From assembly GCA_951406725.2 (NCBI GenBank), contig CATOCA020000001.1, forward strand, positions 11,284,001-11,348,000: a stretch of 64,000 bases of DNA. The letters are read 5' to 3'. A program made the translations under genes and the position numbers. The notes under the pieces were generated by a model that saw nothing but the letters and a program-made list of their open reading frames with translations, searched no databases and had not been told where the DNA came from. Below, one piece after another: positions 13,325-49,787 of this stretch (positions are counted from its first letter, which is position 1; each line of letters opens with the position of its first letter). This DNA comes from Octopus vulgaris. Lineage: Eukaryota.

Positions 13325-13346
13325 TGACTACCGAGTAATGTAACAT

Positions 13347-13406
<60 letters not shown>

Positions 13407-14303: not shown

Positions 14304-14436
14304 TATATTTATATATATATATCTATATATATATATATAAATATAATATTATTAGAGACAAAACCACTATTTTGCAAAACAAACAAGGAAAGACTTAATC
14401 AATACATAAAATTTTAATAAATAGTCAAAAAAACCG

Positions 14437-14479
14437 CCACTACAATTGTTTCTTGTCTTGATCGACAATCTTCAGGTGG
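14437..14479 (-). ncRNA. Minimal type I hammerhead (element 3, left)
   Basis: Reverse complement of 19580-19622. Confidence 0.88.
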
Positions 14480-17400
14480 GCTTCCAATCTAAAATATCAA
14501 TATTTTAAAATATAAAAATAATAATTTTAAAATAATTAAAGTATGAATGAAAAAATATAAATATATAATCCATATATAACCTATATATAATCCATATATA
14601 ATCAATATATAAACAATATATAAACTAAAATAAACCTATCAACAATTAAATATAAAATATAAAATATAAAATATAAAACAAAACAAAAAAATAATAATAA
14701 TATAATAATAAACTATATATACACCCATACATATATACCTAATTATATATAACCATATCTAACTACATACACTAAATCACACACCTATATATATATCCCT
14801 ATACATACACATAAAAACGTCTAGGCAACTATAAATAAATAAAATAGCTAAATACTTCAACACAATACTTATTCATACTCCCACACACACACACATACAA
14901 CCCACATTCACGCTCTAGAAAACGGACATCACTTAAAATTATGAACGGAGAAATGGAATAAATGGAATTAAAAATTATATTCACTTGGTAAAACGAACAC
15001 TACTTAAAAATTATGAATGAAACAATGCAATAAAACAACAGACATCGCAAATAGACACAAATTACTACGAATTCCTTAACAAACCTACCATGATAAACCA
15101 AAACTCATAAAAACATATAATGATAAAATCTCCCTTTACTAAACTCTATAACATACCTATATAGCAATCCCCCTAACCTAAACATTCACACACAAATACA
15201 CACACGTAAACCACACACCCACGACATATACAAATACCCACACCACTTACACATACCTATACATACATATAAACCTCAACATATACTCCAAAAACCCACT
15301 CAACCCCACACAGACAAATAAACACAAAAATTATGAATGGATTCTTTTATAAAACTACCATGATAAGCTAAAACTCACAAAACATAAATGATAAAACCTC
15401 CCTTTACTAAACACTATAACATACTTATATAGCAATCCCTTTAACCTATACATTCACACACAAATACACACACGTAAACCACACACCCATAACAAATACA
15501 AACACCCACCCCACTCACACACACCCACAAGTACATATAAGCCTCAACATATACACCAAACAAAATTACTTTACCAAGGAACTTAACATATGTATAAAAA
15601 GTATAACCGCTCTGGAAACGAACATCTTTTAAAATAATGAATGGAGAAATGGAATAAATGGAATTAAAAATAATATTCACGTGGCAAAACGAACACCACT
15701 CAAAAATTATGAATGAAACAATGTAATAAAACAACCAACATCGAAAATAGACAAATTACCATGAATTCCCTAAAAAAAACCATGATAAACCAAAACTCTT
15801 AAAAACATATAACGATAAAATCTCCCTTTGCTAAACTCTATAACAAACCTATATAGCAATCCCCCTAACCTAAACATTCACACACAAATACACACACGTA
15901 AACCACAGACCCACGACTTATACACATACCTATACTAACTTATAAACCTCAATATACACCAAAAACCCACTCCCTCCCCACACAGACAAATTAACACATA
16001 CATCCCAAAACCTAAATAACAAACCCATATACACATTCACACACAAACACACACACACAACAGATACATATACTCCCTCACATATACGCATATACATACT
16101 CACTAAACTCGATATATACAACAATATTTACACACCCACACTCATACAGATAAATAAATTATACAACTAAAAACTCACACACAATCTCATATACATAAAC
16201 ACTCCAATGAAAAACAACATTAAATACATCGTAATTAACCAGAATATCAAAAATAACAATATGACATAAGGAGAAATAAAATACATACTTACAAGTCAGT
16301 TTCAAATTATGAAGTGAAATTAAATTCTTAGCCGTTAAAAAAATCAAACCAAAATTACGTTACCATAGAAATATAACTTATGTAAAAAAAGAATACGCGC
16401 CATGGAAAGTAAACGTCATTTAAAATTATGAATGGAGAAATAGAATAAATGGAACTAAAAACTATATCCACGTGGCAAACCAACACTACTTAAAAAAAAT
16501 TTATTATGAATGGATTCTTTAATAAAACTACCATGATAAATTATTATATACATTTATGAGCTTTAGCTCATCTTAGCAGCTCTAACAAACAACTTGTAGT
16601 AACCCAAATCTATTCTCGATGCCTGCCTTACTACTACACTATTCCATTCCCAATTCCAAGCAACGCTAGCCCACCACCCGGTTACAATTCCCAACTCCAC
16701 CCATTCATTCACAATTTCAACGACGTTCGCCTCCACAGCGCTACATATAAGCCTCAACATATACACCGGAGATTCGCTTTCACATCCGTGCGGATGGGTG
16801 AGAGTACAAATGTGTATAGCCCCATCCACAGCAATACGCTCACACCCACTCACACCCAGATGGGTGAACTGCACAACCAAAAAACGCACACACACACGTG
16901 TGCGTATTTTGATTGTGCAATTCGCCCATCTGCATGTATGCGGGCGCGAATATACCGTTGCACATATCGAGCCCAACTAGCATGCACATGTACATGTGAG
17001 GGGGTACACGCATATGCCGTGCGCGTATACCCCCCGCATTTATACCCGTGCGTGAATATACACATGGAGACTACCACACAGGTACAAATGTGCATAGCAA
17101 AGGGAGCCCCATCACTACACTCAATGCATACTCTCACCCATCCGCACGGATGTGAAAGCGAATCACCGGTGTATATATTGAGGATCATAAGTAGCGCTGT
17201 GGAGGCGAACGTCGTTGAAATTGTGAATGAATGGGTGGAATTGGGAATTGTAACCGGGTGGTGGGCTAGCGTTGCTTAGAATTGGGAATGGAATAGTGTA
17301 GTGGAATGGCAGGCATCGAGAATAGACGTGGGTCACTGCAAATTGTTTGTTAGAGCTGCCAAGATGAGCTAAAGCTCATAAATGTATATAATAATTTATC

Positions 17401-19579
17401 ATGGTAGTTTTATTAAAGAATCCATTCATAATAATTTTTTTAAGTAGTGTTGGTTTGCCACGTGGATATAGTTTTTAGTTCCATTTATTCTATTTCTCCA
17501 TTCATAATTTTAAATGACGTTTACTTTCCATGGCGCGTATTCTTTTTATACATAAGTTATGTTTCTATGGTAACGTAATTTTGGTTTGATTTTTTTAACG
17601 GCTTAGAATTTAATTTCACTTCATAATTTGAAACTGACTTGTAAGTATGTATTTTATTTCTCCTTATGTCATATTGTTATTTTTGATATTCTGGTTAATT
17701 ACGATGTATTTAATGTTGTTTTTCATTGGAGTGTTTATGTATATGAGATTGTGTGTGAGTGTGTGCGTTTTTTAGTTGTATAATTTATTTATCTGTATGA
17801 GTGTGGGTGTGTAAATATTGTTGTATATATCGAGTTTAGTGAGTATGTATATGCGTATATGTGAGGGAGTATATGTATCTGTTGTGTGTGTGTGTTTTGC
17901 GTGTGTGTGTGTGTTTGTGTGTGAATGTGTATATGGGTTTGTTATATAGGTTTGGGGATGTATGTGTTAATTTGTCTGTGTGGGAGGGAGTGGGTTTTTG
18001 GTGTATATAGAGGTTTATAAGTTAGTATAGGTATGTGTGAGTGAGGTGGGTATTTGTATAAGTCGTGGGTCTGTGGTTTACGTGTGTGTATTTGTGTGTG
18101 AATGTATAGGTTAAAGGGATTGCTATATAAGTATGTTATAGTGTTTAGTAAAGGGAGGTTTTATCATTTATGTTTTTGTGAGTTTTAGTTTATCATGGTA
18201 GTTTTATAAAAGAATCCATTCATAATTTTTTTAAATAATGTTGGTTTACCGCGTGTATATAATTTTTAATTCCATTTATTCTATTTCTCCATTCATAATT
18301 TTAAGTGAGGTTTGCTTCCATAGCGCGTATTCTTTTTATACATAAGTTATGTTCCTATGGTAACATAATTTGGTTTGATGTTTTTAACGGATTAGAATTT
18401 AATTTCACTTCATAATTTGAAACTGACTTGAAAGTATGTATATTATTTCTCCTTATGTCATATTGTTATTTTTGATATTCTGGTTACTTACGATGTATTT
18501 TATATATCGTATTATGTGTAATAATGTTGTTTTTCTTTGGAGTGTTTATGTATGTGGGATTGTGTGTGAGTGTGTGCGTATTTTGGTTGTGTAGTTTGTT
18601 TATCTGTATGAATGTGGGTGTGTTAATATTGTTGTATATGTCGAGTTTGGTGAGTATGTATATGTATATGGTGTGTGTTTTACGTATGTATATTTGTGTG
18701 TGAATGTGTTTATGGGTTTGCTATTTAGGTTTGGGGATGTATGTGTTTATTTGTCTGTGTGGGGTTGAGTGGGTTTTTGGAGTATATGTTGTGGTTTATA
18801 TGTATGTATAGGTATGTGTAAGTGGGGTGGGTATTTGTATATGTCGTGGGTGTGTGGTTTACGTGTGTGTATTTGTGTGTGAATGTTTAGGTTAGGGGGA
18901 TTGCTATATAGGTATGTTATAGAGTTTAGTAAAGGGAGATTTTATCATTATATGTTTTTATGAGTTTTGGTTTATCATGGTAGTTTTGTTAAGGAATTCG
19001 TAGTAATTTGTGTCTATTTGCGATGTCTGTTGTTTTATTGCATTATTTCATTCATAATTTTTAAGTAGTGTTCGTTTTACCAAGTGAATATAATTTTTAA
19101 TTCCATTTATTCCATTTCTCCGTTCATAATTTTAAGTGATGTCCGTTTCTAGAGCGGGAATGTGGGTTGTATGTGTGTGTGAGGGAGTATGAATAAGTAT
19201 TGTGTTGAAGTATTTAGCTATTTTATTTATTTATAGTTGCCTAGACGTTTTTATGTGTATGTATAGGGATATATATATAGGTGTGTGATTTAGTGTATGT
19301 ATTTAGATATGGTTATATATAATTAGTTATATGTGTATGGGTGTATATATAGTTTATTTTTTTGTTTTGTTTTATATTTTATATTTTATATTTTATATTT
19401 TATATTTTATATTTAATTGTTGATAGGTTTATTTTAGTTTATATATTGTTTATATATTGATTATATATGGATTATATATAGGTTATATATAGATTATCTA
19501 TTTATATTTTTTCATTAATACTTTAATTATTTTAAAATTATTTTTATATTTTAAAATATTGATATTTTAGATTGGAAGT

Positions 19580-19622
19580 CCACCTGAAGATTGTCGATCA
19601 AGACAAGAAACAATTGTAGTGG
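19580..19622 (+). ncRNA. Minimal type I hammerhead (element 3, right)
   Basis: ccac-CTGAAGA-ttgtc gatcaa gacaa-GAAA-CAATTG-TA-gtgg. Predicted cleavage after 19618. Confidence 0.88.
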
Positions 19623-19787
19623 CGGTTTTTTTGACTATTTATTAAAATTTTATGTATTGATTAAGTCTTTCCTTGTTTGTTTTGCAAAATAGTGGTTTTG
19701 TCTCTAATAATATTATATATATATATATATATATTACTGGTGAATTGAAGAAATGGAGCTGAACGAAGATTGAACAGAAATCGTTTT

Positions 19788-21401: not shown

Positions 21402-21605
21402 AAAACGATTTCTGTTCAATCTTCGTTCAGCTCCATTTCTTCAATTCACCAGTAATATTAAAATTCAATTATCCGCACCAACGCACGGTTGCAACACCAT
21501 ATGGTTGTACCTCCAACCGTGCGGTCTTCTGCTGTGATTTTTGCTACCAAGGTATCGGTTAAACTTTTGATTAATCTGCTACAAGATTATTCATCTTTCT
21601 ATTTC

Positions 21606-21871: not shown

Positions 21872-23090
21872 TAGGGTCGATCACAAGATCCTATTGAAAA
21901 AACTATCCAACATTGGTGTCTCTGGAAAGTTACTGAAATGGATCAAGTGTGTCCTGACAGACAGATCTCAACATGTTGTAGTTGAAGGGGTAAAATCAAG
22001 CCCAGCCAAAGTCAGTAGTGGCGTTCCGCAAGGCACTGTGCTGGGCCCACTTCTTTTCATCATTTACATTAATGACATTAATGACATCATCAAGCACAGC
22101 AACATAAAAATCTTTGCAGATGACTCCAAGCTACAGAAGGTCATAAATGAGGCGAGTGACCGGACATGCCTTCAGTCAGATCTACTGGCTGTTATCCAAT
22201 GGGCAGAAAAAAACAATATGCTGCTGAACGAGGATAAATTTGAGCTAATCCACTTTGGAAAAGAGGATGCCCTGAAACTCCCATACTCCCTTCCTTCAGG
22301 TGAAACTCTCGCGGCGTCCAACAACATCAGAGACTTGGGAGTAATTGTGGACAACAACATAAGCTGGGCCACTCATATAAACACCAAAGTTGACATGGCC
22401 CACAGAATGTGTTCCTGGATTCTCAGAACTTTCCAGTCGAGAGATATCCACACCATTATCCTTCTCTTCTCCACTTTTGCCCGACCCCACCTTGAATACT
22501 GTTGTCCACTGTGGTCTCCCCACACAATACAAGGTATCATAAAAGTTGAAGCACCTCAAAGGGCAATCACAAAAAAGATAGATGGCATGACAGGCCTCGA
22601 CTATTGGGGTCGACTAGAAAAGCTAAAACTCTATTCTCTCCAACGTCGTCGTGAGCGCTACATCATCTGCATGATGTGGAAAATATTCCATCAGCATTGC
22701 CCAAATGATGTTGGCATCACTTTTAAGGTACATCTAAGGCTTGGGCCCCGTGCCATCCGCCCAAAACAAAAATCGCACTCTCATCTCATAACAACAATAC
22801 GGCACAATTATTTCACCTCAATTGGCCCCGCTCTCTTTAACATTACACCAAAACACATTAAAACAGAAACTGACCCTATAGGGTTCAAGAAGTCTTTGGA
22901 CAGATTCCTTCAAGAAATCCCGGATAAACCCCCTACACCCGGATATGTCTCTGTAAACAATAACTCTCTACTTGAGTGGGCCATAGTGCCCAAATTCTGA
23001 CTTGAAAGACTTCACCAGGTGGTGCTATTAAGTTAGACATGGCCTGGGCCAATAATGGCCGAAACCTATCAAAGTATCAAAGTATCAAAG
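21872..23090 (+). mobile_element. APE-RT LINE, copy 2; 5'-truncated (RT C-terminal half open to stop at 23000)
   Basis: RVDHKILL...[10 protein letters not shown]...FADD...WAIVPKF; (TATCAAAG)3 tail; inserted in (TA)n. Confidence 0.93.
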
Positions 23091-23282
23091 TATATATGTA
23101 GACACATATATATGCATATATATATATATACATATATATATATGCATATATATATATGTATATAAATATATGTATATATATATATATCTATATATATATG
23201 TATATATGTATGTATGTATATGTATGTATATACATATATATATGTATGTGTATGTATATATATATATAATATATATATAACA

Positions 23283-32133: not shown

Positions 32134-32925
32134 GATCAATAATATACTCATACAACCCATGGTAGTATGGAGAAAAGGTGTAAAATGATTGCTTTATATG
32201 CATATACGTACATATATAAGTCTATGTATGTGTATACTCGTGTGCATGTGTGAGTAGCTGTATGGTATAGTGATTCGGGTGTTACCCTCACAATAGCTAG
32301 ATCGTGGGTTTGATTCTTGCAATGCCCTTCCTTTCCCAAGACTTCCGAATGTTTGCCTGCTTTCCAAACCAGTGGAGTGGCATCATTCAAAACGTAAAAC
32401 GATGCAAAGCACATTGTGACCAGTGATGTGTAACATCTGGCAGTATAGTCGATCATGTGACTACATGATTATATATATATGTATATAATCATGTAGTCAC
32501 ATGATCGACTATACTGCCAGATGTTACACATCACTGGTCACAATGTATAGTCGATCATGTGACTACATGATTATATATATATGTATATAATCATGTAGTC
32601 ACATGATCGACTATACTGCCAGATGTTACACATCACTGGTCACAATGTGCTTTGCATCGTTTTACGTTTTGAATGATGCCACTCCACTGGTTTGGAAAGC
32701 AGGCAAACATTCGGAAGTCTTGGGAAAGGAAGGGCATTGCAAGAATCAAACCCACGATCTAGCTATTGTGAGGGTAACACTCGAATCACTATGCCATACA
32801 GCTACTCACACATGCACACGAGTATACACATACATAGACTTATATATGTACGTATATGCATATAAAGCAATCATTTTACACCTTTTCTCCATACTACCAT
32901 GGGTTGTATGAGTATATTATTGATC
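32134..32925. repeat. Near-perfect ~790-bp palindrome with duplicated apex
   Basis: Arms differ at two positions by eye. The ~102-bp segment containing the hairpin apex occurs twice (32443-32545, 32546-32646). Confidence 0.92.
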
Positions 32926-34217: not shown

Positions 34218-34297
34218 ACATGGAGGATTTCAGACAGAAAATTAGAAATGGTGACGTCAAAGGAATTCAAAAATTAGTGAAAAAGGATCCAACAATA
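34218..34297 (+). CDS. Ankyrin/RING (MIB2-like) gene, exon 1 of model
   Basis: Pyrimidine tract + ag|AC ATG; MEDFRQKIRNGDVKGIQKLVKKDPTI|gtaagt, phase 0. The acceptor implies an upstream exon that was not located. Confidence 0.75.
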
Positions 34298-35119
34298 GTA
34301 AGTTGTTCTCTTTATTGCCTTCTCAAATTTGACTGTTTATTATTTTATACACAATATGAAATGTTTTATACACAATATGAAAAGTAGCCACATATATTTG
34401 TCCATGATATTTCATTTCTTTCTTCACCTCTTTTCTCTAATCCTCATCATCGACATTTTTATAAATATTTATCCAAACATTGAGACATGACAGAATTGAT
34501 GGAATGTGAGTGAGAAAGAAATCCATCACACACTGCAATGGGGTGTTCTGGCGGGAAGTATTCAGCCCAAGAGATGAGAGACAGATGGAGACGATAAATG
34601 GATGGTGACTTTTTAAAGAAGTCCTCTTGCCATACAAAGTTGAGGGTTTATTGGTGTCAAGGGCTACACCATTTTTTATTGAATTTTATACACATATGAA
34701 AACACTGGTGTGTCACATAGGAATCAAACCCCACTTTATAAAACTGTACTGGTGTTCACTGAATCTAGAAAGGCACCTAAAGGGACAAAGGTGATTTTGA
34801 TTATGACGCTTTACTTCATAATTGAAATATTGGAAGTTAGAATGACAGGATGTCAGTCAATAGATGGGATAGTGTCTGCAGGAATATAGAGCAGGGCTTC
34901 TCAAAGTGGTCAATACCACCAATGTATGGGGGCTGTGGGAACATTTTATATTAGTTTATGTATATATGGCACTCCAAGAATATATAACTGAGTTTGGCAG
35001 AAGCCTCGTATTAAAGGTTAAATATGTAAAAAAAAGCGAAGTGGTGATGCATCAAATATTTACTTATTGTGAGGTGGTGTTATGGTAAGTAGTCAACCAC
35101 CAGGGACGCTCAGCCTGAG

Positions 35120-35875
35120 GGAATGCTGGAGCTACGCGTCATAATATGAGCTACATGATGGGTCGCCAGGGACTTGGCTCTTCCTATTTCCAACAATGGA
35201 AGAAAACAGAGACCAGGGAGAGGCGGGTTATGACTCAGAAATCCTTGTGGTACCAGGAGGAAGATAAAAGGAAATAAAGGGCTGTGGAGTTGGATTCTCT
35301 GGGTGCATGGACTAAATGGGATCTCCCTAAGAGGAAGCTCACATGGACTGACCTGTGGGGGCTGGAACCTTTGCTCATCTCCTTCCTGCATGGAGCTGTG
35401 TATGACACAAACCAGCACATATAGGGTTTGAGGGAAGACCAGTTGTGTAGACTTTGTGGGAAAGGGGCACTCTGGCACACATCTGGGCAGGGTGCAGAAT
35501 AACACTTTCTCAAGGCAGATACAAATACTGGCTCACACCCTGGAGCAGTAAAGGTGTGAGAAACATCATCACCAAGGGAAGATAACTGTTGCAATTCAGT
35601 TCGTGAAAGAGGGACAGAAATCAATAAAGCCAGCAAAAGCAATACACAGCTTGCTGCAAGGGTCTCAACCATAGGATATGAAGGTAGACTTAGGGAAGAG
35701 ATTGCAGTTTCCCCAGGTTATCCATACAACCCTGAGGCCTGATGTGGTTCTGTGGTCTGAAAAGGCCCAGAAAATTATCATAATTGATCGAACACTCACG
35801 TGGAGAGTGGGTTGTAACGAGGCCCATGAACGGAAGTGTGACAGATATAAGAGCTTTCTGCAGGCTCAATTCACC
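35120..35875 (+). mobile_element. Degenerate RLE-type non-LTR retrotransposon C-terminus (HERO/NeSL-like)
   Basis: GAWTKW...RKLTWTDLW...AVYD, CRLCGKRGTLAHIWAGC zinc knuckle, VDLGKRLQFP...LRPDVVLWS...EAHERK..RY (PD-(D/E)xK). Confidence 0.75.
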
Positions 35876-36077
35876 TTGATGAATAGATAAAACACATCCT
35901 TACAGGTATTATTAACTCGTATATATATGTGTGTGTGTGTGTGTGTGTTTATGTGTGTGTGTATGCATGTATATCTGTGCTAGTGTTTGTCCCTAACTGC
36001 TAATTGATAACTGGTGTTGGTGTATTTGCATCCCTGTTACTTAGCCCTGAAGCAAAGAGAGCTATAGGTTGGTGCTA

Positions 36078-36279
36078 AGGTGGATTTCCGATTTTCAAAT
36101 CAGTTTCAATTTATGACTTCATAAATTGAAACTGATTTGAAAATCGGAAATCCACCTGACGAATGTCATTTGAAGACATGAAACGATTGTAGTGGCGGTT
36201 TATTTACTTTATATTAAAATTTTATGTATTCATTAAGACTTTCCTTGTTTGTTTTGCAAAATAGTGGTTTTGTCTCGAA

Positions 36280-36287
<8 letters not shown>
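36078..36287 (+). mobile_element. Mini fold-back relative of element 3
   Basis: Perfect 39-bp-arm hairpin (36078-36157), then a hammerhead and a ~95-bp tail homologous to 19619-19714, then (TA)n. Confidence 0.85.
36152..36195 (+). ncRNA. Minimal type I hammerhead, intronic and sense to the host gene
   Basis: ccac-CTGACGA-atgtc atttgaa gacat-GAAA-CGATTG-TA-gtgg. Confidence 0.82.
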
Positions 36288-36364
<77 letters not shown>

Positions 36365-36372
36365 TATGTATA

Positions 36373-36423
<51 letters not shown>

Positions 36424-36934
36424 ATGTGTGTGTGTGTGTCTGTGTCTGTGTACGTGCGTGTGTTTGTGTGTCTGTGTTTGTCCCCCAACATCGCTTGACA
36501 ACCGATGCTGGTACTAGGCATATTGGGGTTGATTTGCTTGACTAAGGACAGTGCTCCAGCATGGCCACAGTCACATGACTGAAACAAATGAAAGAATAAA
36601 AGAATAAATGTAATTATGAACTCACACACATACACACACACACACACATTTTGCTGCTCTATGTGTTTATTTATTGAGTTATTCATCCTATATATATGTG
36701 TGTTTGTGTGTGTATGTATATAAATATATTTATATGTACATATGTATGTGTGTATACGCGTGTGTGTATATACAATAGAAATCTCCATTAACTACTCCCC
36801 ACCCGAATCATTCCACCTGTTTAATTAATTTCATTCCTTCTCTTCTCTTTTTCTGTGATTTTTCTTTTAATTCTTCACCACCCGACTCCCCTTTCAGACA
36901 CCATTTTTAATGTTTTTATTCTTTTCTTTATCAG

Positions 36935-37089
36935 GTTAATCCTCGAGATGTGCAGGGTCACAAACCGCTGCACTGGGCCTGTTCGTCCGGACACTTGCAC
37001 ACTGTCGACATGTTATTGGGTCACAATGGCATTGATGTCAATGTGGTGGACAAGTATGGAGACACACCACTGCATAAGGCAGTTTGGGG
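36935..37089 (+). CDS. Ankyrin/RING gene, exon 2
   Basis: tcag|[52 protein letters not shown]|gtaagt, phase 0-2; canonical ankyrin repeats. Confidence 0.92.
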
Positions 37090-38063
37090 GTAAGTCCCCA
37101 TTGGATCTGGAATATCCAAATCTGTTTCTTTTATGTTTTCAATAATGTTTGTTTCTTTTTCATTCAGTCATTCATGTCATAATCCCACCATGGGGTCATT
37201 GTCTTTCTTCTCTCTTTCGCACTGAAATAACACTGTAATCTACTTTATTAATTAATCATCACCATAATTGTTATTGTTGTTGCCTGACTGGACACATTAC
37301 GTCATCTCGTTCTCCATTTCCTCAACGTCACAGGTTCAAATCCTCTCACTTCTTCATTTAATCCCATCTTGAACTACTTTCTCTCTCTCTCTCTTTCTTC
37401 CTCACTCTCACTCTCTCTCCTCTGTAGTTTCTCTATTCACTCCGACCCTGGGCTAAATACAGAATCATCCCCTTACAGTATTTACATTTGTCTCTTTTAT
37501 GATCCATGTTCAAATCCTACCAGAATATTTACTATCACTCTGGGGTCAATATAATCTGTACCAGTAATAACCAGGGATTCTTTTAATAAACTGTCTTCCT
37601 TCTTTTCTCCTGTTCTTGTCTCTTATTACTTTTAGAGAAAATAAATTGTGTTATTTTATTTACGACTCTTTACGTTCAGAGTTCAAATCCTGCCATGGTC
37701 AACTTCTTCCATCTTTGCAAGGTTGATAAAATACAATACCAGTCATGTACTGGGGTTCATATGATTACCTGTAGCCCTTCTTTCCTTCCTAAATTTCATG
37801 TTTATATAAGCTGTGAGAATTCTTAGCAGTATTTTTCCTGTCTTTTCATTTCTGGGTTTACTCAGGTGTGTATATATCATTGTTCTACTCTGTAGAGTGT
37901 GTATTGAATAAATATATGTGTGTGAGTATGTGTGTAATAATTGCTGTAATTAAGTTATTGTAACCTAATTACATTTGTTTTCTTTAATGACCTAATAATT
38001 ATTATCTCAAGCTCTGTGATGTTTGTTTTTTCATGTTTTTCTTTCCTCATCCATTACTTTCAG

Positions 38064-38100
38064 CCACTGCAATGATGTTGTGTCTCTATTGCTGAACCAG
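38064..38100 (+). CDS. Ankyrin/RING gene, exon 3
   Basis: ttcag|(G)HCNDVVSLLLNQ|gtcagt, phase 2-0; completes the ankyrin repeat. Confidence 0.85.
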
Positions 38101-38372
38101 GTCAGTTAATAAATACATATTATATACACTCTCCAGTATTTTATTGATCTGTATAATATAAATATTACCAATGTACCAGTAAAATAATGGGGAAAGATTT
38201 AATCACATGTACTACAAAAGCCTTGTGTTTGTGGAGGAATTGTATATTGATCATGTTGATGTTGATATTAGCGGTGTTGACAGTCCAACTGACCACCTCC
38301 ACTGATAGTAATATCTTTAATGGTCAAATGAAACAAGGTCATTATGAGATAAACTAAAATATAACAGACATC

Positions 38373-38422
<50 letters not shown>

Positions 38423-38429
38423 TTTAAAT

Positions 38430-38775
38430 GTTTTAGGCATTTGACTGCGGACATTTCGGGGCATCACCTTGAACTTTTAGTCAACTGTATCGATCCCAGT
38501 ACTTTTTTATTTTAAGCATATCACTTATCGTCTCAGCGTCTTAACCGAGCCACTACACACACACACATACGCAAAAACTCACTCACACACACATACATAG
38601 GCACACACATAGACACACACATGTTATAAAGCTTCTTTCAGTTTTCATTTACCAAATCCACTTATAAGATATTGTTCAGCCCTAGGTAAGAGTAGAATAT
38701 ACTTGCCTGAGTTTCCATGCAGAGGGATTCAACGTGGAACAGTGTATGGCTGGGAAAAAAGCTCCTTACACTACA
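38430..38775 (-). mobile_element. Degenerate SINE (family B)
   Basis: Colinear with 11148-11537. Confidence 0.6.
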
Positions 38776-38831
38776 ATTACTACAACCATATATGGATGTG
38801 TGTGTCTATCTATTTTTATCTATCTGTCTAA

Positions 38832-38908
<77 letters not shown>

Positions 38909-39173
38909 TCATCATACTTGCTTGACTCAGATTTTCTTGAGGCAGATTCTCCGCAGCTGGATGCTCTCCCTATCGCCAACCCTCTCCTCTTCTTTTCAAA
39001 GAAGCTAACATTTGCCAAGAACGAGACATGTTTCCGCAGAATGTTAGAAAAAAGAGACGCTGCTTATATGACAGTGGCACTCATTTACAACTATCACATA
39101 GATGTCACGACAAAAAGACAGTCACACACACACACACACAAGCGTATACGCACTCACATACAAGATGAATACT

Positions 39174-39227
<54 letters not shown>

Positions 39228-39376
39228 CACACACAAAGAAGTCTGTGTGTGTCTGTGCGTATATATATATGTATGGATATATACATACACATATATATAC
39301 GCAAATATGTATATATGTGTGTGTGTCTGTGTGTGTGTGTGTCTATGCGTAGGAATATGTATATATTTATACACAC

Positions 39377-39411
<35 letters not shown>

Positions 39412-39807
39412 CATATAAAGTAAGAAATTATAAGATGAATATATTTCTTTCACCAGTTACATCGTTTCACAGAAATTTTCGTGTATGATAAATTCTTTTA
39501 CATGTCTGCATTAGTGTATAGGTTATAAATCATACAGTGCCATCGTACAATTTACAAAGTAAAACAGGTATAAATGACAAGCACCTCAGTTCATAGAATA
39601 TCATGTTTACATCCATTCTTCAATGCAATATACATATACAAGAACAGAATTTTATTTTCAAAATATTAATGTATGGAAGACAATAATTTACAAAACAGTT
39701 TTTTATAGAAGAGAGAAGGAGATTTAGTAAGATACCAAAAAGGAAGCTGTAAATATACATACATGCATATACACTTATATATATATACATATACATATAT
39801 ATGTATA

Positions 39808-40330
39808 TTAAAAATTGGGGTGGTTTATGGGATTACCCTGGGTTTCCCATTCATAAAAGGTTTAGCTTTGTACCGTATCGTAAGACCCCAAAACCTGTTG
39901 GCCTAAGAACTCTTCAAAATATGGAAGGGGAAAAGCCTGGGATTTACGTTTTCTGCAAACGATCCTTTTCAGCTCCCTAGCAAGAGATTATCCCAGTGAC
40001 CATGTGGTTCCTGTTAAATATCTCACCATCGAAGCGTTTCTACATATTCACTGAAACCACGGGTCTCCCATAAATATGAAAGAATTTGACCTCGGACACT
40101 CCAGCAATAACATCCCAACGTCATCCAACGAACTATACACCCGTATGCAGCTGGAAAAGCTATTGGACGTGATTAGGCGTATGAGGTGAACGGCTTTTCC
40201 ACCCTCCATATTTGGAAGAGGTCTTAGGCCAACAGGTTTTGGGGTCTAATGATACGCCATGAAGCTAAATCCTTTTTGGACCGGAAACCAAGGGTAATCC
40301 TGGAAACCGGCCTTCCCCAGTTTTAAAATA
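39808..40330. mobile_element. Old head-to-head inverted pair of Penelope 5' ORF fragments
   Basis: Inverted repeat 39808-39938 / 40192-40330. Plus frame from 40076: MKEFDLGHSSNNIPTSSNELYTRMQLEKLLDVIRRMR*TAF, like the NIP...IKRMRWKA N-terminus of Penelope ORFs. Confidence 0.6.
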
Positions 40331-41023
40331 TACACTGCTCTGCATCTTAGAGTGTGCTTCTTCTCCGGATTTATCTTTTCTACAAACAAAACATATATAT
40401 ATATATGTCATTATTCAGTTTAATTGCAGATATTCTATTTTTCACTTTATGTCAACATCCGTTGGACAGTTAATTTCCACAACTGTGAACAGTTTCTCTA
40501 TGTATGTATGTATGTATGTATGTATGTATGTATGTATGTCTGTCTGCACACACACACACACACACACGTTGTGATATAATTGTCATTTAGTCTACCTCAG
40601 GAATTTCAGGGTTTTTGAGTTTTATTACAAATGGGGGATTGGGAAATGGAGTATTGACCCATTTTGCATCGGACACTTGTGGGTTGGATACTGTACAATT
40701 GGATGTATTGCATCCTCCGGTGCAGATGCATCTCATCTGGTGTCTTGTTTTACAGGAGAAACCTCACTAAATATTATCGGTTTCGCTTGGCATGTTGTTG
40801 CCAGGAGGTTGTTGGCTATAATGCTATAATCCAAGAACCTACTGACAACAACAGCATACCAAGCGATACCGAGAACTCTCCCACCCGCAGGTAATCGTTG
40901 CAAGATGGGTCAAACCAATCGTTGTGATGAATAAAGTTTCTCGTGAACTTCATTTTACATTTTCCTCATTGAACAAATATATTTATATATCCAACAGTAA
41001 TGTATATAAACTTCTCTCACTCT

Positions 41024-41094
<71 letters not shown>

Positions 41095-41528
41095 TTGTGT
41101 GTGTATCTGTGTTTGTGTGTGTGCACGCGCATTAATTTCATGGTGGTGGACACTAACCACCTCAACAGTTTTATGAACCTCTTATGAATTATAGCAACAT
41201 CAAAAGTATACTTTAGAAATTTCAATTCTTCTTTACTAGTCTTGATCTGTTAATCATGTGTTCACTCGTGTTCAGTTCCCCTAAAACTTACTATAGTTAG
41301 GAATAAAGGTAGATTAAGCTGAAACAATCTATTTAGGACATCTTTATCCTGTCTAGAACACATTCTCATAGCAACATCTAGAGGATCTTACGAAGGTTGA
41401 TTTTACGGACAAACATCAAATGTACATGATCAGTTTGATCAAGTATACAGTAGAAGACAATAATGACACATTGATATCCATCCTGATTTTCATGTAAATT
41501 TTCATTTTCTATTTTTACTTCCACAAAG

Positions 41529-41738
41529 GGTTCAGTTCAGTTGGATATTCAGAATAAAAAGAAAATGATACCATTACTTGAAGCCGTTTCCCTGGGTCAC
41601 CTCGGAATGATACACAAGCTAATAGCCCTGGGTGCAAACATAAATGCTGTTGATAGTGAGGGTAACAGCTGTTTGCACGTTGCTGTGAAAACAGAAGTGT
41701 TTGATCCCGAGGATGCACCCTTGGATTTACTAAACGAA
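41529..41738 (+). CDS. Ankyrin/RING gene, exon 4
   Basis: aag|GSVQLDIQNKKKMIPLLEAVSLGHLGMIHKLIALGANINAVDSEGNSCLHVAVKTEVFDPEDAPLDLLNE|gtaaga, phase 0-0. Confidence 0.92.
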
Positions 41739-42348
41739 GTAAGATTTTAAATTGATTGCGTATATATATATATATGTGTTCGTATGTGTGTGTCTGTGAA
41801 TTTGTGTATTTGTGAGTCTTTGTGTGAGCGTGATAAAGAGACAGACAGACAGACAAACTTTGCTTGTCATGTATCAATTCTCCCCTATCACCCCTATCCT
41901 CCATTACCATTCCGTGATCCAGTCTCCCCTTATGACCCGAGTGATATTATGTAACAAACAATATTCCATCTCCTTTCACTCTCAAAGATGTCGTCTCACC
42001 ACGGTCGAGAGGTGACCCATCTCGGTTGTTGGCCATATAAACACAGCCATCACAATGTGACGGAGAAGTGGCCTATTTAATAGAGGAGATATTATTCTCA
42101 ATTAACAATGATGCAGGATAGAAGAGATGTCTCAGCTTTATAGTGCTGGTGCCATGGTAAATACATCCAGTCCATTCTATGAAGAATTCTGAGTGAAACT
42201 GCTCTCTATCCTACTTCTTGTACACGACATGAATCCACTGACTTCTTGTGGACATGTCATAACAATGTTCAATGTTAAGACACTAGAGAATGAATACAAT
42301 AAAGCATGGTCCTTAGTGAGATTTCCTGTATTTAAGTTCTGTACTTAG

Positions 42349-42413
<65 letters not shown>

Positions 42414-43361
42414 CTCACACACACAAACACACACAAGTAATGATTTTCAGTTTGAGTATATATCTTGTAAAATGCTGTTTAAAGCCCGTTCACTATATTC
42501 GGCTATCTGATGTCAGCAACAGTATGGACTTTAATACTACTGGACTTTTTGCTGTCATCTTATAAATGAAGCAGTTTTTTATAATCCTTTTATTTTTCAA
42601 AATTAAGATAAACAAAGTACTTTTTTCTGTTAATCTAAAACATATTCTCCTTCATTTTCTACAATACTCTTCCATCTATCTGGTAGACTTGCAAGTCACC
42701 TCTTCCAAATTTCACTTGTCCGTGATTAAAAATACTCCTCCATTACTCTTCTGACTTGACACTAATTCCTGCTTCCTTTACTTTACTGTCATCATTCAAA
42801 GATGCTTCTTGCTTAATTATGGAAACATTATTGATATGTTTGGTTATGTTTGTGTGGTATTGACTTTGTTATGTTATAGGTGTTTTTGTTTCTGATATAA
42901 CTTATGTTCTTTCTTCTCATGTTGTGTTATATTTATATATACAATACTCTTTCTTATGGCCACATGGTCGCCTTTATCAAGCCAATTATATAGATAGGTT
43001 CTTGTTGGTTTGTTCTTCCTATATTTGATTTTTCTATTGAATATATTGTGATATTTGTGATTGACAAGTAAATATTTACTCATTAATTATCAATAAGCTT
43101 GATGTTAATCAATACGGTTTGTCCTGCTCTATGTAATGACAATATATTTAGAGGGTGTCTCAGTGTTGAAAATAAAGTAAAAACATGAAAATGGGAAATG
43201 GACTAAATTAAAGATTATGTAGGAACTCAATACTTTGTAATTGCTTTAATTGGTGGATAAACAACCTATGAGTAAATTTAGATGAACTTTTGTGTAATTA
43301 GGGGCATTTGTTTTGAATATTTGTGTAATATTGTCATCATTTTATATTTCATCATTTGTAG

Positions 43362-43537
43362 TGCTGCACTGCCCTTAACCTGAAAATAGAGGAAAGGCTC
43401 TCTGGTGTAGTGGTTGCGAGATATCTCGCCAACCAGGGAGCGGACTTTCATCATAAAAACAACAAAAATAACACACCATTGGACCTCATTAAGGACCCAA
43501 ATTTGAGAAAAAAATTAGAAGCATTTTTACCACCACC
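43362..43537 (+). CDS. Ankyrin/RING gene, exon 5
   Basis: tag|CCTALNLKIEERLSGVVVARYLANQGADFHHKNNKNNTPLDLIKDPNLRKKLEAFLPP|gtaagt, phase 0-2; resembles the last ankyrin region of mind-bomb proteins. Confidence 0.88.
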
Positions 43538-43595
43538 GTAAGTATCTCCTAGCAATGAAAAAAGATAAACCTGTACATTTTCTATTTTGTATATA

Positions 43596-44855
43596 ATCAT
43601 CATCATCACCATTTAGCGTCCGCTTTCCATGCTAGCATGGGTTGGACGGTTCAACTGGGGTCTGTGAAGCCAGAAGGCTGCATCAGAAGTCTGATCTGGC
43701 AGTGTTTCTACGGCTGGATGCCCTTCCTAACGCCAACCACACCGTGAGTGTAGTGGGTGCTTTTTACGTGCCACCCGCACAGGTGCCAGACGGAGCTGGC
43801 AAACGGCCCCGAACGGATGTTGCTTTTACGTGCCACCGGCACGGGGGCCAGGCGAGGCTGGCAACGGACACGAACGGATGGTGCTTTTACGTGCCACCGG
43901 CACGGGGGCCAGGCGAGGCTGGCAACGGACACGAGCGGATGGTGCTTTTACGTGCCACCGGCACGGGGGCCAGGCGAGGCTGGCAACGGACACGAACGGA
44001 TGGTGCTTTTTACGTGCCACCGGCACTGGTAACTCAGCTGCAATTTCCATTGATCGATTTCAATTCTGATCCTCACTTGCCTCAGCAAGGTCATCAGCAT
44101 AGAGGAGCTCCCAGGGGCATCCTGTCTTGAATTCCTCCGTTATTGCCTGGAGGACTATGATAAATAGGAGGGGGCTGAGGACTGAGCCTTGGTGGACCCC
44201 TACCTCTACCCGGAATTCTTCACTGTACTCGTTGCCAACCCCCACATTACTAGCAGCGTCCCTGTACATGGCTCGCACAGCTCTCACTAACCATTCATCT
44301 ATCCCTAGTTTCCTCATTGACCACCAGATAAGGGATCGGGGGACCCTGTAAAAGGCTTTCTCCATGTCAACAAAAGCCAGGTACAGGGGCTTATCTTTGG
44401 CTAGGTATTTCTCCTGGAGCTGCCTTACCAGGAATATAGCATCAGTGGTACTTTTCCCTGGCACGAACCCAAACTGCATCTCATCTAAACTAACTCTTTC
44501 TCTAATTAGTTGGGCTATGACCCTCTCCGTAACCTTCATCACCTGATCCAAGAGCTTGATACCTCTGTAATTATTTGTATCTAGGGCGTCACCTTTACCT
44601 TTGTAGCAGTTGACTATTATGCTGCTACACCAGTCATTGGGTATGACTCCTTCATGTATCACCTGATTAACTATACGGGTGACTAGGCTATAGCCGACAC
44701 TACCAGACATTTTGAGCATCTCTGCAGTGATTCCTGTTTGGCCTGGGGCTTTCCTTGTCTTCATGCTTCTAATTGCCTTAACTGCCAAGGAACTATCAAC
44801 TCGGATAGCTGGTCCCTCTGTTGGGTCAACATTCGGCAGACTCTCTTTATCCCAT
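43596..44855 (-). mobile_element. RTE-clade LINE fragment with internal deletion
   Basis: RT motifs KGKGD...NYRGIKLL, QFGFVPGKSTTDAIF, FVDMEKAF, GVHQGSVLSP, LYADDL, joined directly to a 3'UTR with 61-bp tandem repeats and a (GAT)n tail. Confidence 0.92.
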
Positions 44856-45364
44856 TCATTTTCTTTATCATGTTTATATGTTTATTTCGTTTTAATTCTA
44901 CCAATACATTATACTGTCGCTAGTGTTTTTGTCAAAGGTCACACAATAAACAATATGCAGTTCTCAGGAGATCAAAGAAAGAAAATGATTTTGATTACAT
45001 TCACATGTTTCGTAGTGTTGCCAGTTATACTTCACTGTCCATCAGCACCTTCCTCGCCTCGTTCCCTATTTTATAGATTTGTGATCAATAGGAAAATATA
45101 GATCTAAATAATGAAGTGAATGAATTCCATTTTGAAACTGTTACTTAGAATTAAGTGGAATTTATCTGTCTACCAACATCTTTTTCGCACTCTTCTAAGT
45201 CCGAATCAGTCAATATTACGAATGATTTCGAAGAAAAATAACCTACAAACACACACCAACAGTGTATATATTATATTTCTGCAAATACTGATGTAACATC
45301 GCCACATATCTTCATAGAAAAAAAAAACTGCCAGGAAACGTAAATAATTCAAATAACACATATA

Positions 45365-46654
45365 CGAGGGACGTTAAATAAGTAATGCCTCTTACCCACT
45401 TGCAGTTGTTTGATCTAGCTGAAATTTTGTCTGTGCAATTATTTATATCTCTATAGATTAAGTGGCAAATTACAGCTCTGAAATAATTGTGGTTTCTGAT
45501 TTACAGGTTTTTGAACCGAGTAAAGTGTGAAATGGAGCCTGTTGAGTGTCGAGCAGTGATCCGGTTTTTGTATTTGAAAGGACGCACACCACGGGAGACA
45601 TTTGATGAAATGAAAGTAACTTATGGTGATGATGCCCCATCATATGACCTTGTAAAACCCTGGCATCGTAAATTCAAACATGGTCGGAACTCTGTGGAAA
45701 CAGCTCCCAGATCTGGTCGCCCCCTTTCTGCCATTGATGAGGCATCTGTCCGTCAAGTTGAGGCTGCCATTTTGGAAGATCGACGCATAACAATTCGCCA
45801 AATAGCCCATCAGGTCAAGATTAGTACCGGGTCTGTGGAAACTATCATTCATGACCATTTGCATATGCAAAAGGTGTCTGCCAGATGGATTCCCAGGTTG
45901 CTCACACCTTTCCAGAAGCAAGAACGCGTCGAGTGCTCGAGGATGAATTTGGAGAGGTGCCAAGAAGATGAGTCAAAATTTTTGAAAAGACTGATTACAC
46001 AGGATGAAACCTGGGTCCATCACTATGATCCAGAGACCAAAGCCCAGTCAATGCAGTGGAAGCACCGTGACTCACCTCCTCCAAAGATGCAAGGGTGCAG
46101 CCCTTCGCTGGCAAGGACATGCTCATAGTCTTCAGGGACCAGGACGGAGTAGTGATGACAGATTTCCCGGCAATGGGTACCACAATTACAGGAGCCTATT
46201 ATGCTCCACTTTTGAGGAAATTAAGAGAAGCTATCAAAATCAAGAGGCGGGTCAAGATCAGAAAAATCCTCCTCCTCCTGCAGGACAACGCTCCGGTCCA
46301 CAACTCGCGTGTCGCCAGATCAGAAGCACAGGCGTGCGGCTATGAACTCCTCCCCATCCCCCTACTCTCCTGACCTTGAACCCTCTGATTTTCACCTCTT
46401 CCCAGCCATGAAGTTGTTTCTGAAGGGAAAGCGTTTCACAGATGATGCAGCCTTGATTTCTGAAGTCACGTCGTGGTTGGAGGACCAAGCTGGGGTCTTC
46501 TACAAAAACGGTCTTCAGAGCTGCATCAAACAATGGGAGAAATGCGTAACTCTGGGTGATTCCTATGTAGAAAAATACTAATAACTGTGCTAAGTTTCGT
46601 TGCTCTACTGCAATGGGAAGTGGGTCAGGGGCATTACTTATTGAACGCTCCTCG
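45365..46654 (+). mobile_element. Full-length mariner (DD34D), probably irritans-like
   Basis: TIRs CGAGGGACGTTAAATAAGTAATGCC / GGCATTACTTATTGAACGCTCCTCG, left TA intact, 1290 bp. Confidence 0.93.
45532..46581 (+). pseudogene. Mariner transposase with two frameshifts
   Basis: PRSGRP, WIPRLL, TQDETW, QDNA, YSPDLEPSDF; frame changes near 46085 and 46360. Confidence 0.92.
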
Positions 46655-46919
46655 AACCATTACTAGGTGTTTTAGTCGCCTTTCACTCCCGTATTTTATA
46701 ACATTTGGCAATTTCTTTGCCATACATCTCTCTGTATTAGCTACTTAAGAAGCAGACACATTTCCCCCTCAGCGAATATACAAAACTTTCTTTGTCTGTT
46801 GAAATTCAGATATTGTTTATAGATATTGATTTTTGGACTGTATAAATATTGTTCTGCTTTATTCAATTGACAAGCTTCAGAAGATTTTATTTGCTTTTAC
46901 AAATAATCGTTTATGTGAA

Positions 46920-46982
<63 letters not shown>

Positions 46983-47047
46983 TATTATTATTATTATTAT
47001 AACAACAACAACAATAATAATAATAATAATTATAATAAAAATAATAA

Positions 47048-47108
<61 letters not shown>

Positions 47109-47656
47109 TGGAAGCTATGCCAACATTATGGAATAACAACAGAAAAAAGATGGTATAGGCACACACCAGAAAAGGTCACAGAAAACGAGAAAGCAACCAT
47201 ACTCTGGGATATGCCGATACACACAGATAGAGAAATTAAGGCCAACAGACCAGATATAGTTGTCAGAGATCATGAAGAAAAAAATGCTTTCTTATTGATG
47301 TATCAATACCGGCAGATGACAATGTGTCTCTAAAAGAAATGGAGAAACTCTCAAAATACAAAACCTGGAAATAGAGGTAACTAGAATGTGGAATCTGAAA
47401 ACAGAAACAATTCCTATCATAGTAGGTGCATTAGGCATGATAAAAAAATATTCAGACAAATACATAACAAAAACACCAGGACTTACAAACACATATAACA
47501 TACAGAAAATTGCACTACTAGGCACTGCACACATCCTACGCAGAACACTTTCCATACAATAACCATCAGAGCATCACAACAAATCACAGCACATACCCAA
47601 GGCACACAGAGCTGCGCTCGGTAGTGAAGTGAAAGCACGCTATAAAAATAAAACTA

Positions 47657-47660
<4 letters not shown>
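47109..47660 (+). mobile_element. Dong/R4-like RLE retrotransposon 3' end in (TAA)n
   Basis: WKLCQHYG...ILWDMPIHTDREIKANRPDIVV...PIIVGALG...IQKIALLGTAHILRRTL; (TAA)n on both sides. Confidence 0.85.
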
Positions 47661-47697
<37 letters not shown>

Positions 47698-47810
47698 TAA
47701 TAATAATAATATGTCTACAGATCGCAGCTGATATTATTGGAAAGGGGCAAAATAAGGGACAGAAAACTAGAACTACATGCACGATACATATAATAAAGCC
47801 TCCCAAAATC

Positions 47811-48197
47811 ATGGTGGAAAATATCTCATCAGCATTGCCCAAATGATGTTGGCATCAGCTTTAAGATATACCCAAGGCCTGGGCCCCGTATTATCTGCCC
47901 ACAACATAAATCAAACTCGCATCACATAACAACAATACGGCAAAATTAATTCACCTCAAGTGGCCCCACTCCATTTAGCATGACACCAAAATACATTAAA
48001 GCAGAAAAAGACTCCCATAAAGTTCAAGAAGTATTTGGAAAAATCCTTCAAGAAATCCCGGATAAAACTCCAACACCAGGACATGTCCCCGTAAACAGCA
48101 ACTCTCTTCTCGAGTGGGTCATGTTGTTCGCATCCTGATTCGCCCTGTAGTGGGATTACATTAAACATGACCTGCGCTAATGCTGGCGCGACCTATC
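47811..48197 (+). mobile_element. Older diverged 3' fragment of the APE-RT LINE family
   Basis: Colinear with 52493-52890, with many substitutions. Confidence 0.8.
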
Positions 48198-48200
48198 ATG

Positions 48201-48257
<57 letters not shown>

Positions 48258-48589
48258 ATATATATATGGATTAACTGTTGAAGTGGACGGACGTCTATTT
48301 GTTTCTCTCCCAAGTCAGTAGCAAGCTACACAGCTTCAAAACTAACTGACCTTAAATATATATATATTTGTAACCACGTGTTTGCCTACAAACCCGTAAG
48401 TACGTTTTCATTTAACTACAAATTGTTATATACACCTGTTTTTCTTTTAATATCCTCAAACAACCAAATAATCAAAAACTCACACCCTTAAGAGAGAACA
48501 TTTAAATATATATACACTTCTTTAACTCCCAAGAAAGAATATATATATTTTCAAAAATCAAAAGGAAAACAAACAAAAGAAAAACAAAC

Positions 48590-49580
48590 ATGACTAACTT
48601 GCAGGCCTGCAACAGACGAAATTGGTCTGATAACGAAATTGATGTTTTAATAAACACATGGTTCTCTCTTTCCCAAACAGAAAATCTAAATGTTTTGTGT
48701 TTGAATGAGATTGCCGAAAAAACATCACAAGTGGTCAACACACGATCCGTCAAACAGATTCGTAACAAGCTGAAACATATAGAAGTATCTTTCAAACTGA
48801 CAAAAGGCCATTTTGAAAAGCTTCTTCATATTTTCACAGTTCAAGAACAGCAACAGCTAGAAAATCAGCAGCCACAACAACAACAACAACAGAATGAGCC
48901 ACTCCTGGTTCCCAGCACAATGGCTGACCCTAACATCGGTCAAGCACGACAACAACAACAACAGCCACAGCAACAAGAACAACAACAGCCACTCCTCAAC
49001 TCTAGCTTACTAGACGATTCACTAAATGCCAGTATCTTTTCACCGCTCTCACAGCAACCACCACAATTATCATCATCATCATCACCACCGCTGCCACCAT
49101 CGTCTTCTATCACCAAAAATACCAACAGAAAACCAAATAAGAAACCATTGCCCTCTTCCCCCACATCACCACCTCAATACTACTGCAGTAACAAAAACTT
49201 AAAGAAACATAGGAAGCAGAATGCGCCCCCACGGCACAAACAAGAAATCCCCAAATATGCCGCTATTCACTGCGCCAGAGACTCTGCACAAATAGTGACT
49301 GCATCTTCACGCATCTACCCGGCACTAGACGCACTACCGGCCAAGGCCAAAGCACGCATCCCACAATAACATCAACACCACCAAATAGTAAATCGAAATT
49401 CAAAACACACACAACTCGGAGTCCCAAAATCTGCCGGTATTCCCAACGTGAGAGAACATGTCTACTGAGTGACTGTCCCTTCACTCATCTTCCAGGGACC
49501 CGACGCACAAACAGAAACGGGGCTTCAAGCCAACACACAAACCTGAATAAAAATAAAAATAGAAACACACCATGCTGAAG
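48590..49580 (+). pseudogene. LINE ORF1: Myb/SANT-like N-terminus, polyQ/SP linker, two CCCH fingers (frameshifted)
   Basis: RRNWSDNEIDVLINTW...NEIAEK...RSVKQIRNKLKHI; CRYSLRQRLCTNSDCIFTH; CRYSQRERTCLLSDCPFTH. Confidence 0.75.
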
Positions 49581-49787
49581 TAATGCTGGTCCAGTCTTTT
49601 CAGGAAGACACAAAAACAACAACAACAAAAGTGGAAACTACAACCCTATCCAACAGTGCAACCACACCTCCAGCCAAAAACTGCTCCCTAAGCAGGAAAA
49701 TTCTTTTTTAGCCATGTTGAACATGGCAAAAGAGATACACAAAAACATTCTAGCCATCACTCAACACCATCCTATGCTATTACCCCA

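What the first reader, a model, noticed from the sequence alone, without database searches (positions are those of the whole stretch)
36078..36287. 210-bp mini fold-back with a covarying hammerhead, sense within a host intron
Seen: same tail as element 3. The hammerhead stem II changes ttgtc/gacaa to atgtc/gacat (compensatory), and the free core position 7 changes A to C. It is preceded by a perfect 39-bp hairpin whose left arm (aggtgg) can pair with stem I and the first core bases. Inference: the covariation points to selection on ribozyme structure. The hairpin is a minimal record of snap-back priming and may mute the ribozyme inside the E3-ligase pre-mRNA.
Basis: partly seen in the sequence, partly recalled or inferred. 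Interest (0 to 1): 0.72.

Follow-up and report, generated by a model that had tools for sequence, protein, structure and literature searches.

The report
Spliced Penelope retrotransposon fold-back remnant
This hairpin with a small hammerhead RNA motif is a clipped, intron-free scrap of a common Penelope-type jumping gene, likely made by copying the start of its spliced message twice, head to head; it probably does nothing for the host gene, but it and its sister copies give a clue to how these elements copy themselves.

Summary
The hairpin, hammerhead motif and sense position in an ankyrin-RING gene intron are real. The 'compensatory' pair is mismatched in at least 785 of 2550 genomic copies, and the motif is the known weak, dimer-type hammerhead of Penelope-like elements (PLEs). 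The copy belongs to a 6.3-kb PLE with an 840-aa ORF. It is a precisely spliced copy: its short first exon is joined to the hammerhead exon at 36142|36143, where long copies carry a GT-AG intron. The genome holds at least 1020 such spliced junctions, yet 15 of 15 ORF-linked upstream repeats keep the intron. Spliced copies start at an initiator-like site and usually sit head to head with the tail on one arm only; in 16 of 59 pairs neither arm contains the other, which favours two cDNAs over snap-back. Here the left arm is cut short at a 6.4-7 kb deletion relative to paralogs, so the 39-bp length is likely an accident; muting is a by-product. The scan noted the same spliced fold-back before in another genome (e1-9506236). 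I found no paper on intron-free PLE copies.

The parts
36078..36116 (-). Remnant of the inverted (left) arm: reverse complement of the 5' end of the spliced element RNA, cut off at 36078
   Evidence: Exact 39-bp match to 36119-36157; the only short centre-only arm among 65 spliced arms classed
36116..36142 (+). Exon 1 of the PLE 5' UTR, starting at the A of an initiator-like TCACTT; the G at 36115 is not in the native upstream sequence (possibly cap-derived)
   Evidence: Same 27 nt precede a GT donor in long copies L159, L169, L190; 20 of 24 spliced arms that reach this A begin exactly there
36142..36143 (+). Exact splice junction; long copies carry a 561-1137-nt GT-AG intron here
36152..36195 (+). 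Minimal type I hammerhead motif; predicted cut after A36191; stem II 36163-36167/36175-36179; helix III self-complementary, fits a dimer
   Evidence: cleavage untested
36196..36290 (+). 5' UTR sequence downstream of the hammerhead, ending at the nearer of two copy end points; lacks the roughly 85-nt tail extension that most pairs have on one arm
36286..36412 (.). (TA)n target tract
   Evidence: paralogs have only a short TA-rich run here
35107..36078 (.). Left flank shared by the tandem paralogs; stops inside an old interspersed repeat at a deletion breakpoint (about 6.4-7.1 kb missing)
34298..36934 (+). Host intron between ankyrin exons 34218-34297 and 36935-37089 of an ankyrin + RING gene
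14304..19734 (.).

Best explanation
The element is a spliced, ORF-less copy of the 5' end of a Penelope-like retrotransposon, likely inserted as two head-to-head cDNAs into a (TA)n tract and likely cut down to its present form by a 6-7 kb deletion; its hammerhead is predicted to be inactive here and probably has no host role. Shown: parent element, exact intron loss, start-site clustering, one-sided tail, missing flank DNA. Inferred: the element's promoter makes a capped RNA starting at the A of TCACTT; the intron is spliced; the RT-endonuclease nicks both strands of a TA tract and starts reverse transcription at two internal sites 150-235 nt past the junction; both cDNAs run through the uncut hammerhead to or near the cap; their 3' ends pair by a few bases and each is filled in on the other. 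Most of the left arm, with its antisense hammerhead and probably the tail, was lost during or after insertion.
For: Parent: the sequence past the tail runs into an ORF start; L206 holds an 840-aa ORF with YRDD, a Cys linker and a C-terminal YIG motif between two copies of the repeat; nearest Atlas clusters carry GIY-YIG, HTH_animal, RVT_1. Splicing: exact GT-AG loss; each subfamily's short form matches its own donor, including a 4-nt shorter exon 1 where the donor is GTAAGT; 1020 spliced and 463 unspliced junctions, controls 0, both lower bounds; 63 spliced, 16 unspliced, 10 other of 89 sampled arms. RNA start: 20 of 24 arms begin at the A. Two cDNAs: tail on exactly one arm in 55 of 59 pairs; tail arm at least 15 nt shorter at its 5' end in 16, longer in 13, about equal in 26. 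In vitro, an anole PLE nicks and extends both strands, starts at two internal sites bounding the tail, uses uncut RNA, and its hammerhead does not cut without protein (PMC11167929, parts 1-2 of 4 read). Deletion.
Against: No RNA evidence for the spliced transcript or its start in this species. Pfam found no RT or GIY-YIG family in the ORF and PDB gave no hit. Central deletions after insertion could mimic unequal arms. Four of 24 arms extend upstream of the start. The cap-G signal is weak: 12 of 20, of which 8 are at fold-back centres where the other arm also explains the G; 4 of 12 elsewhere. For this one copy the sequence cannot tell twin cDNA from snap-back, nor deletion at insertion from later deletion. 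Only 2 of 14 paralog stretches reached the right flank clearly. Samples are coordinate-ordered or best-hit loci, about 250 of several thousand.
Confidence: 0.78

Rival explanations
1. Single-cDNA snap-back: one cDNA of the spliced RNA reaches the cap, folds on itself and copies itself; unequal arms come from long loops, early stops or later deletions.
For: Palindromic centres are common, and the same centre as here recurs in 3 other loci of 4 exact matches and in other subfamilies. Self-priming is the published reading (PMC3846280, discussion read). Fits the 26 symmetric and 13 tail-arm-longer pairs of 59.
Against: 16 of 59 pairs have the tail on the arm that is shorter at the 5' end; in six of them (L002, L004, L016, L022, L060, L083) the long arm starts exactly at the initiator A. 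Here it would need a 2-bp stem around a 2-nt loop.
Confidence: 0.3
2. The hairpin was kept by selection because it silences an active ribozyme that would otherwise cut the host pre-mRNA.
For: Sense orientation; the arm covers stem I and C3/U4; penalty for the active fold rises from 4.7 to 17.1 kcal/mol.
Against: Single minimal PLE hammerheads showed no detectable cleavage, dimers little (PMC4209133, parts 1-2 of 4 read). Helix III P about 0.01 as monomer. Any breakpoint in the outer four fifths of a 190-bp arm would also cover stem I. Insertion is young (98% to sister copies) and absent from 29 of 30 paralogous flanks.
Confidence: 0.06
3. The short copies are a non-autonomous mini-element amplified from one old intron-less master, so splicing happened once.
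For: Short copies are numerous and uniform in length.
Against: At least five subfamilies each have matching long and short forms with their own exon 1, donor and loop II; fold-back centres differ between copies.
Confidence: 0.07

Closest known systems
Inverted pLTR + tail insertions of endonuclease-bearing Penelope-like elements (PMC8557442 passages; PMC3846280 passages and discussion)
   Same: Inverted 5'-truncated copy at the 5' end, palindrome at the junction, tail on one end, hammerhead in the pLTR, TCACT initiator-like motif, (TA)n targets
   Different: No ORF; intron removed, whereas these papers stress intron retention and one proposes an antisense template; tail about 85 nt rather than 30-40; left arm truncated
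Drosophila virilis Penelope 5' UTR intron (PMC2377424 passages)
   Same: Short first exon, intron in the 5' UTR next to the hammerhead; most transcripts spliced
   Different: Intron 0.6-1.9 kb against 75 bp; genomic spliced copies are abundant here; the 3' splice site lies 9 nt before stem I
Minimal type I hammerheads of metazoan PLEs (PMC4209133)
   Same: 4-bp helix I, short palindromic helix III, pairs on opposite strands 100-700 bp apart, many subfamilies per genome
   Different: No G10.1-C11.1 pair: the position next to the core is U-A, A-U, U.U or A.G
Poseidon element of Anolis in vitro (PMC11167929)
   Same: Two internal RT start sites bounding the tail, both strands nicked and extended, uncut RNA used
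   Different: There the hammerhead overlaps the ORF start; here it lies about 270 nt upstream. That paper does not link the reaction to inverted or spliced copies (terms checked)
LINE-1 twin priming and cap-derived 5' G (title and passages in PMC9341517; mechanism recalled)
   Same: Two priming events give an inversion; extra G at full-length 5' ends
   Different: In LINE-1 the two cDNAs cover different parts of the RNA; here both cover the same 5' part

Membership tests
Endonuclease-bearing Penelope-like element (derivative) | Parent ORF with RT and C-terminal GIY-YIG endonuclease | tested here: met
   840-aa ORF with YRDD and C-terminal YIG motif, Atlas neighbours GIY-YIG/RVT_1; Pfam and PDB silent
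Endonuclease-bearing Penelope-like element (derivative) | Partial tandem with pseudo-LTRs flanking the ORF | tested here: met
   Hammerhead repeat on both sides of the ORF, about 6.0-6.8 kb apart, in L206, L208, L209, L211, L212, L214
Endonuclease-bearing Penelope-like element (derivative) | Inverted 5' copy and tail on one end | tested here: met
   55 of 59 head-to-head pairs; tail longer than the published 30-40 bp
Endonuclease-bearing Penelope-like element (derivative) | 5' UTR intron retained in genomic copies | tested here: not met
   Lost in this copy and in at least 1020 junctions; kept in 15 of 15 ORF-linked upstream repeats
Endonuclease-bearing Penelope-like element (derivative) | Target-site duplication | not tested
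   Ends lie in (TA)n and the left end is deleted
Neptune clade | CX2-5CxxC-type linker before the endonuclease; (TA)n targeting | tested here: inconclusive
   Cys-rich linker and TA targets seen (features from PMC8557442); no tree built, Nematis not excluded
Minimal type I hammerhead | CUGANGA, GAAA, NUH and helices I and II | tested here: met
Minimal type I hammerhead | Palindromic helix III allowing a dimer | tested here: met
   8-nt self-duplex -5.8 kcal/mol here, -6.4 in the sister subfamily
Minimal type I hammerhead | G10.1-C11.1 pair | tested here: not met
   A-U here; variable and often mismatched in the family
Minimal type I hammerhead | Self-cleavage after the NUH | not testable with these tools
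   Needs a bench assay
Metazoan retrozyme (features recalled; search listing only) | Tandem monomers independent of an ORF-bearing element | tested here: not met
   Copies are head to head and continuous with a PLE ORF

The most novel reading that the evidence does not exclude
Penelope-like elements do reverse-transcribe their spliced, capped sense mRNA, but because RT starts just downstream of the hammerhead this yields only short dead copies; a protein dimer primes both nicked strands at the two start sites and joins the two cDNAs by their 3' ends. One reaction would then explain head-to-head pseudo-LTRs, the one-sided tail, and why only intron-retaining full-length copies are seen, with no need for an antisense template.
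Probability: 0.55. Interest if true: 0.72.

Novelty: new variant of a known kind. Interest (0 to 1): 0.47.

Why it matters
As a single locus it is ordinary transposon debris. As one of over a thousand spliced copies it bears on a stated open question: why PLEs keep introns and how their inverted ends form. One paper proposed self-priming on an antisense template (PMC3846280); another calls the meaning of intron retention unknown (PMC8557442). Head-to-head copies with the spliced junction on both arms (19 distinct centres) show that a spliced sense RNA was the template, and they map the RNA start and both RT start sites from DNA alone, which makes the model directly testable in the existing in vitro system. 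It also warns that one swapped pair between two copies is not covariation.

Tried and rejected
Rfam scan: nothing at gathering threshold. Repeat finder was swamped by microsatellites. Pfam and PDB did not recognise the parent ORF. No RNA holder listed on record for the host exon. DNA contigs of four runs: three show the left flank going on with paralog-type letters at 36078, no listed contig bridges the junction, so presence in other individuals is unresolved. RNA evidence for splicing of the element was not obtained. Lunse 2017 (PMC5785218) and Pyatkov 2004 (PMC522041) are not held; Arkhipova 2003 and 2006 and Evgen'ev 2005 were not seen, and they or unread supplements may mention intron-less copies. 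Literature searches for intron-less or spliced genomic PLE copies and for octopus PLE hammerheads found no such report in the held library. Rejected: copy-specific compensatory change; retrozyme; DNA foldback transposon (ends are retro-type: splice junction, TA tract, tail); host-selected muting. No covariance model or subfamily tree was built. Inner stem II pairs never vary in 17 tail-anchored arms, so they say nothing on covariation; the core columns were fixed by the search pattern.

Full report
Observation. 36078-36116 is the exact reverse complement of 36119-36157; a type I hammerhead pattern spans 36152-36195 with C at position 7 and stem II AUGUC/GACAU; the two other matches in the window, in the 14304-19734 fold-back, have A7 and UUGUC/GACAA. 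The copy is sense in intron 34298-36934 of a gene whose five ankyrin exons join in frame and which has a RING exon downstream, so the E3-ligase label is reasonable. Rfam does not detect the motif.

Family. A DNA search of the own genome gave 1785 candidates, of which 40 were scored, with best hits 95-99% identical. A loose hammerhead pattern gave 2550 matches and a tail pattern 4444, controls 0. Past the tail the sequence runs into an ORF start; a protein search found several open frames of 820-860 aa among 150 scored candidates. L206 has an 840-aa ORF with YRDD, a Cys linker and a C-terminal YIG motif, flanked by two copies of the hammerhead repeat 6.3 kb apart. Pfam and PDB did not name it; the Atlas neighbours carry GIY-YIG, HTH_animal and RVT_1. 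This layout, the inverted 5' copy, the one-sided tail and (TA)n targets match published PLEs (PMC8557442 passages). Neptune is likely from the linker but was not tested by a tree.

Covariation. The cited pair is the one next to the core. Of 2550 matches 505 are A-U, 596 U with U or C, and 189 A with A, C or G; the other 1260 were not split by search. Selection on the ribozyme shows in another way: among 183 fetched arms the triplet is GUA in 180 and GUU in 3, the 3' strand of stem I is kept in 181 and the 5' strand in 175, while position 7, loop II and loop III vary by subfamily (the core was fixed by the pattern). In 17 arms found by the tail alone, of 30 examined, 13 being truncated, core changes are single-copy only. 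The helix III palindrome keeps its self-pairing in both window forms. This is the known minimal, dimer-type hammerhead, for which single motifs showed no detectable cleavage (PMC4209133).

The copy is spliced. Upstream of the hammerhead, copies come in two forms. Long ones have an acceptor ending in TTTTAG 13 nt before the core; short ones have 27 nt of other sequence there. In long copies those 27 nt lie 0.6-1.9 kb upstream, followed by a GT donor. The window copy equals exon 1 plus exon 2 of L159, L169 and L190 with the GT-AG segment removed exactly, at 36142|36143; element 3 keeps the intron at 18434-19570. Each subfamily's short form matches its own donor, and where the donor is GTAAGT exon 1 is 4 nt shorter. 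The genome has 1020 spliced junctions (pattern misses the GTAAGT subfamily) and 463 unspliced ones (pattern misses five-T acceptors); these count arms, not insertions. Of 89 sampled arms 63 are spliced, 16 unspliced, 10 truncated or unclear; the sample is enriched for some subfamilies. Of 23 ORF-start loci fetched, 22 were parsed, 15 have the hammerhead directly upstream, and all 15 are unspliced. D. virilis Penelope has the same short exon and 5' UTR intron (PMC2377424 passages).

The turn marks the RNA start. Of 24 spliced arms that reach the A of TCACTT, 20 begin exactly there; a TCACT initiator-like motif is described in rotifer PLEs. Twelve of the 20 have a non-native G before it, as the window copy does at 36115; 8 of these are at fold-back centres where the other arm explains the G, so a cap origin (as suggested for LINE-1) is only a lead. 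Because the copies span the cut site, the template RNA was uncut.

Two cDNAs or snap-back. My first reading was snap-back of one cDNA. An earlier scan note (e1-9506236) spoke of copying twice, head to head, and I tested that. In 59 head-to-head pairs the 85-nt tail extension is on exactly one arm in 55; the tail arm is at least 15 nt shorter at the 5' end in 16, longer in 13, about equal in 26. In the 16 neither arm contains the other, so a second antisense strand carrying the tail was needed; in six the long arm starts exactly at the initiator A, which later random deletion would rarely give. This fits the anole PLE, which nicks and extends both strands from two internal start sites that bound the tail. 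Nineteen distinct centres carry the spliced junction on both arms, which points to a spliced sense template and not the antisense template proposed in PMC3846280. Snap-back remains possible for symmetric copies, this one included.

Why the arm is only 39 bp. The left flank occurs 30 times, mostly in a tandem family on the same contig; 29 continue with the rest of an old repeat, and none of 14 longer paralog stretches holds a piece of the element. In the two that clearly reach the right flank, 7.07 and 6.4 kb lie between the two flanks. Among 65 spliced arms, 37 sit in full two-armed fold-backs, 14 beside a partial inverted arm, 13 have other joins, and only this one has a short centre-only arm. 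Three other loci share its exact centre and are full fold-backs. The left end is therefore a deletion breakpoint with one base of overlap, made during or after insertion.

Muting. The hairpin does hold stem I and C3/U4 and raises the cost of the active fold from 4.7 to 17.1 kcal/mol. But a full fold-back sister copy is duplexed through the whole motif, the monomer hardly forms helix III, the insertion is young and private to one paralog, and most possible breakpoints would leave stem I covered. A host function is unlikely.

Verdict. The locus is a new variant of a known kind: PLE inverted-repeat debris with a minimal hammerhead, but intron-free. I found no report of spliced genomic PLE copies in the held library; several older papers could not be read. 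The scan has seen the same thing in another genome. Interest 0.47, nearly all from what the family says about the PLE mechanism.

Noticed in passing
window 34218-53804 and G000:C31: The host is one of at least 24 paralogous ankyrin + RING loci clustered on one 12-Mb contig, judged by a shared intron flank; in this copy the RING exon joins 1 nt out of frame unless an exon was missed.
   Followed up: partly
window 4659-9241, 11660-13361, 19731-21458: Three further fold-back elements of other PLE families with RT or GIY-YIG-like ORF pieces; none matched my type I hammerhead scan. 19731-21458 abuts the right end of element 3.
   Followed up: no
window 32134-32925 and 61681-63872: Two more large inverted repeats (97% and 72%) not assigned to a family.
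   Followed up: no
L206:3210-5732; window 6520-7659: PLE ORFs carry long asparagine-rich stretches, as described for rotifer Penelope.
   Followed up: no
window 17618-19570; L164, L211: The element's intron varies from about 0.6 to 1.9 kb between subfamilies and holds internal duplications, including a second copy of exon 1 with its donor.
   Followed up: partly
L206, L209, L212 and others: Several copies have open frames of 820-860 aa, so the family is young and may still be active.
   Followed up: no
window 777-4613, 21873-23186, 49066-52943: Three 96-99% identical copies of an APE-RT LINE; a Mariner-like transposase remnant at 45487-46578.
   Followed up: no
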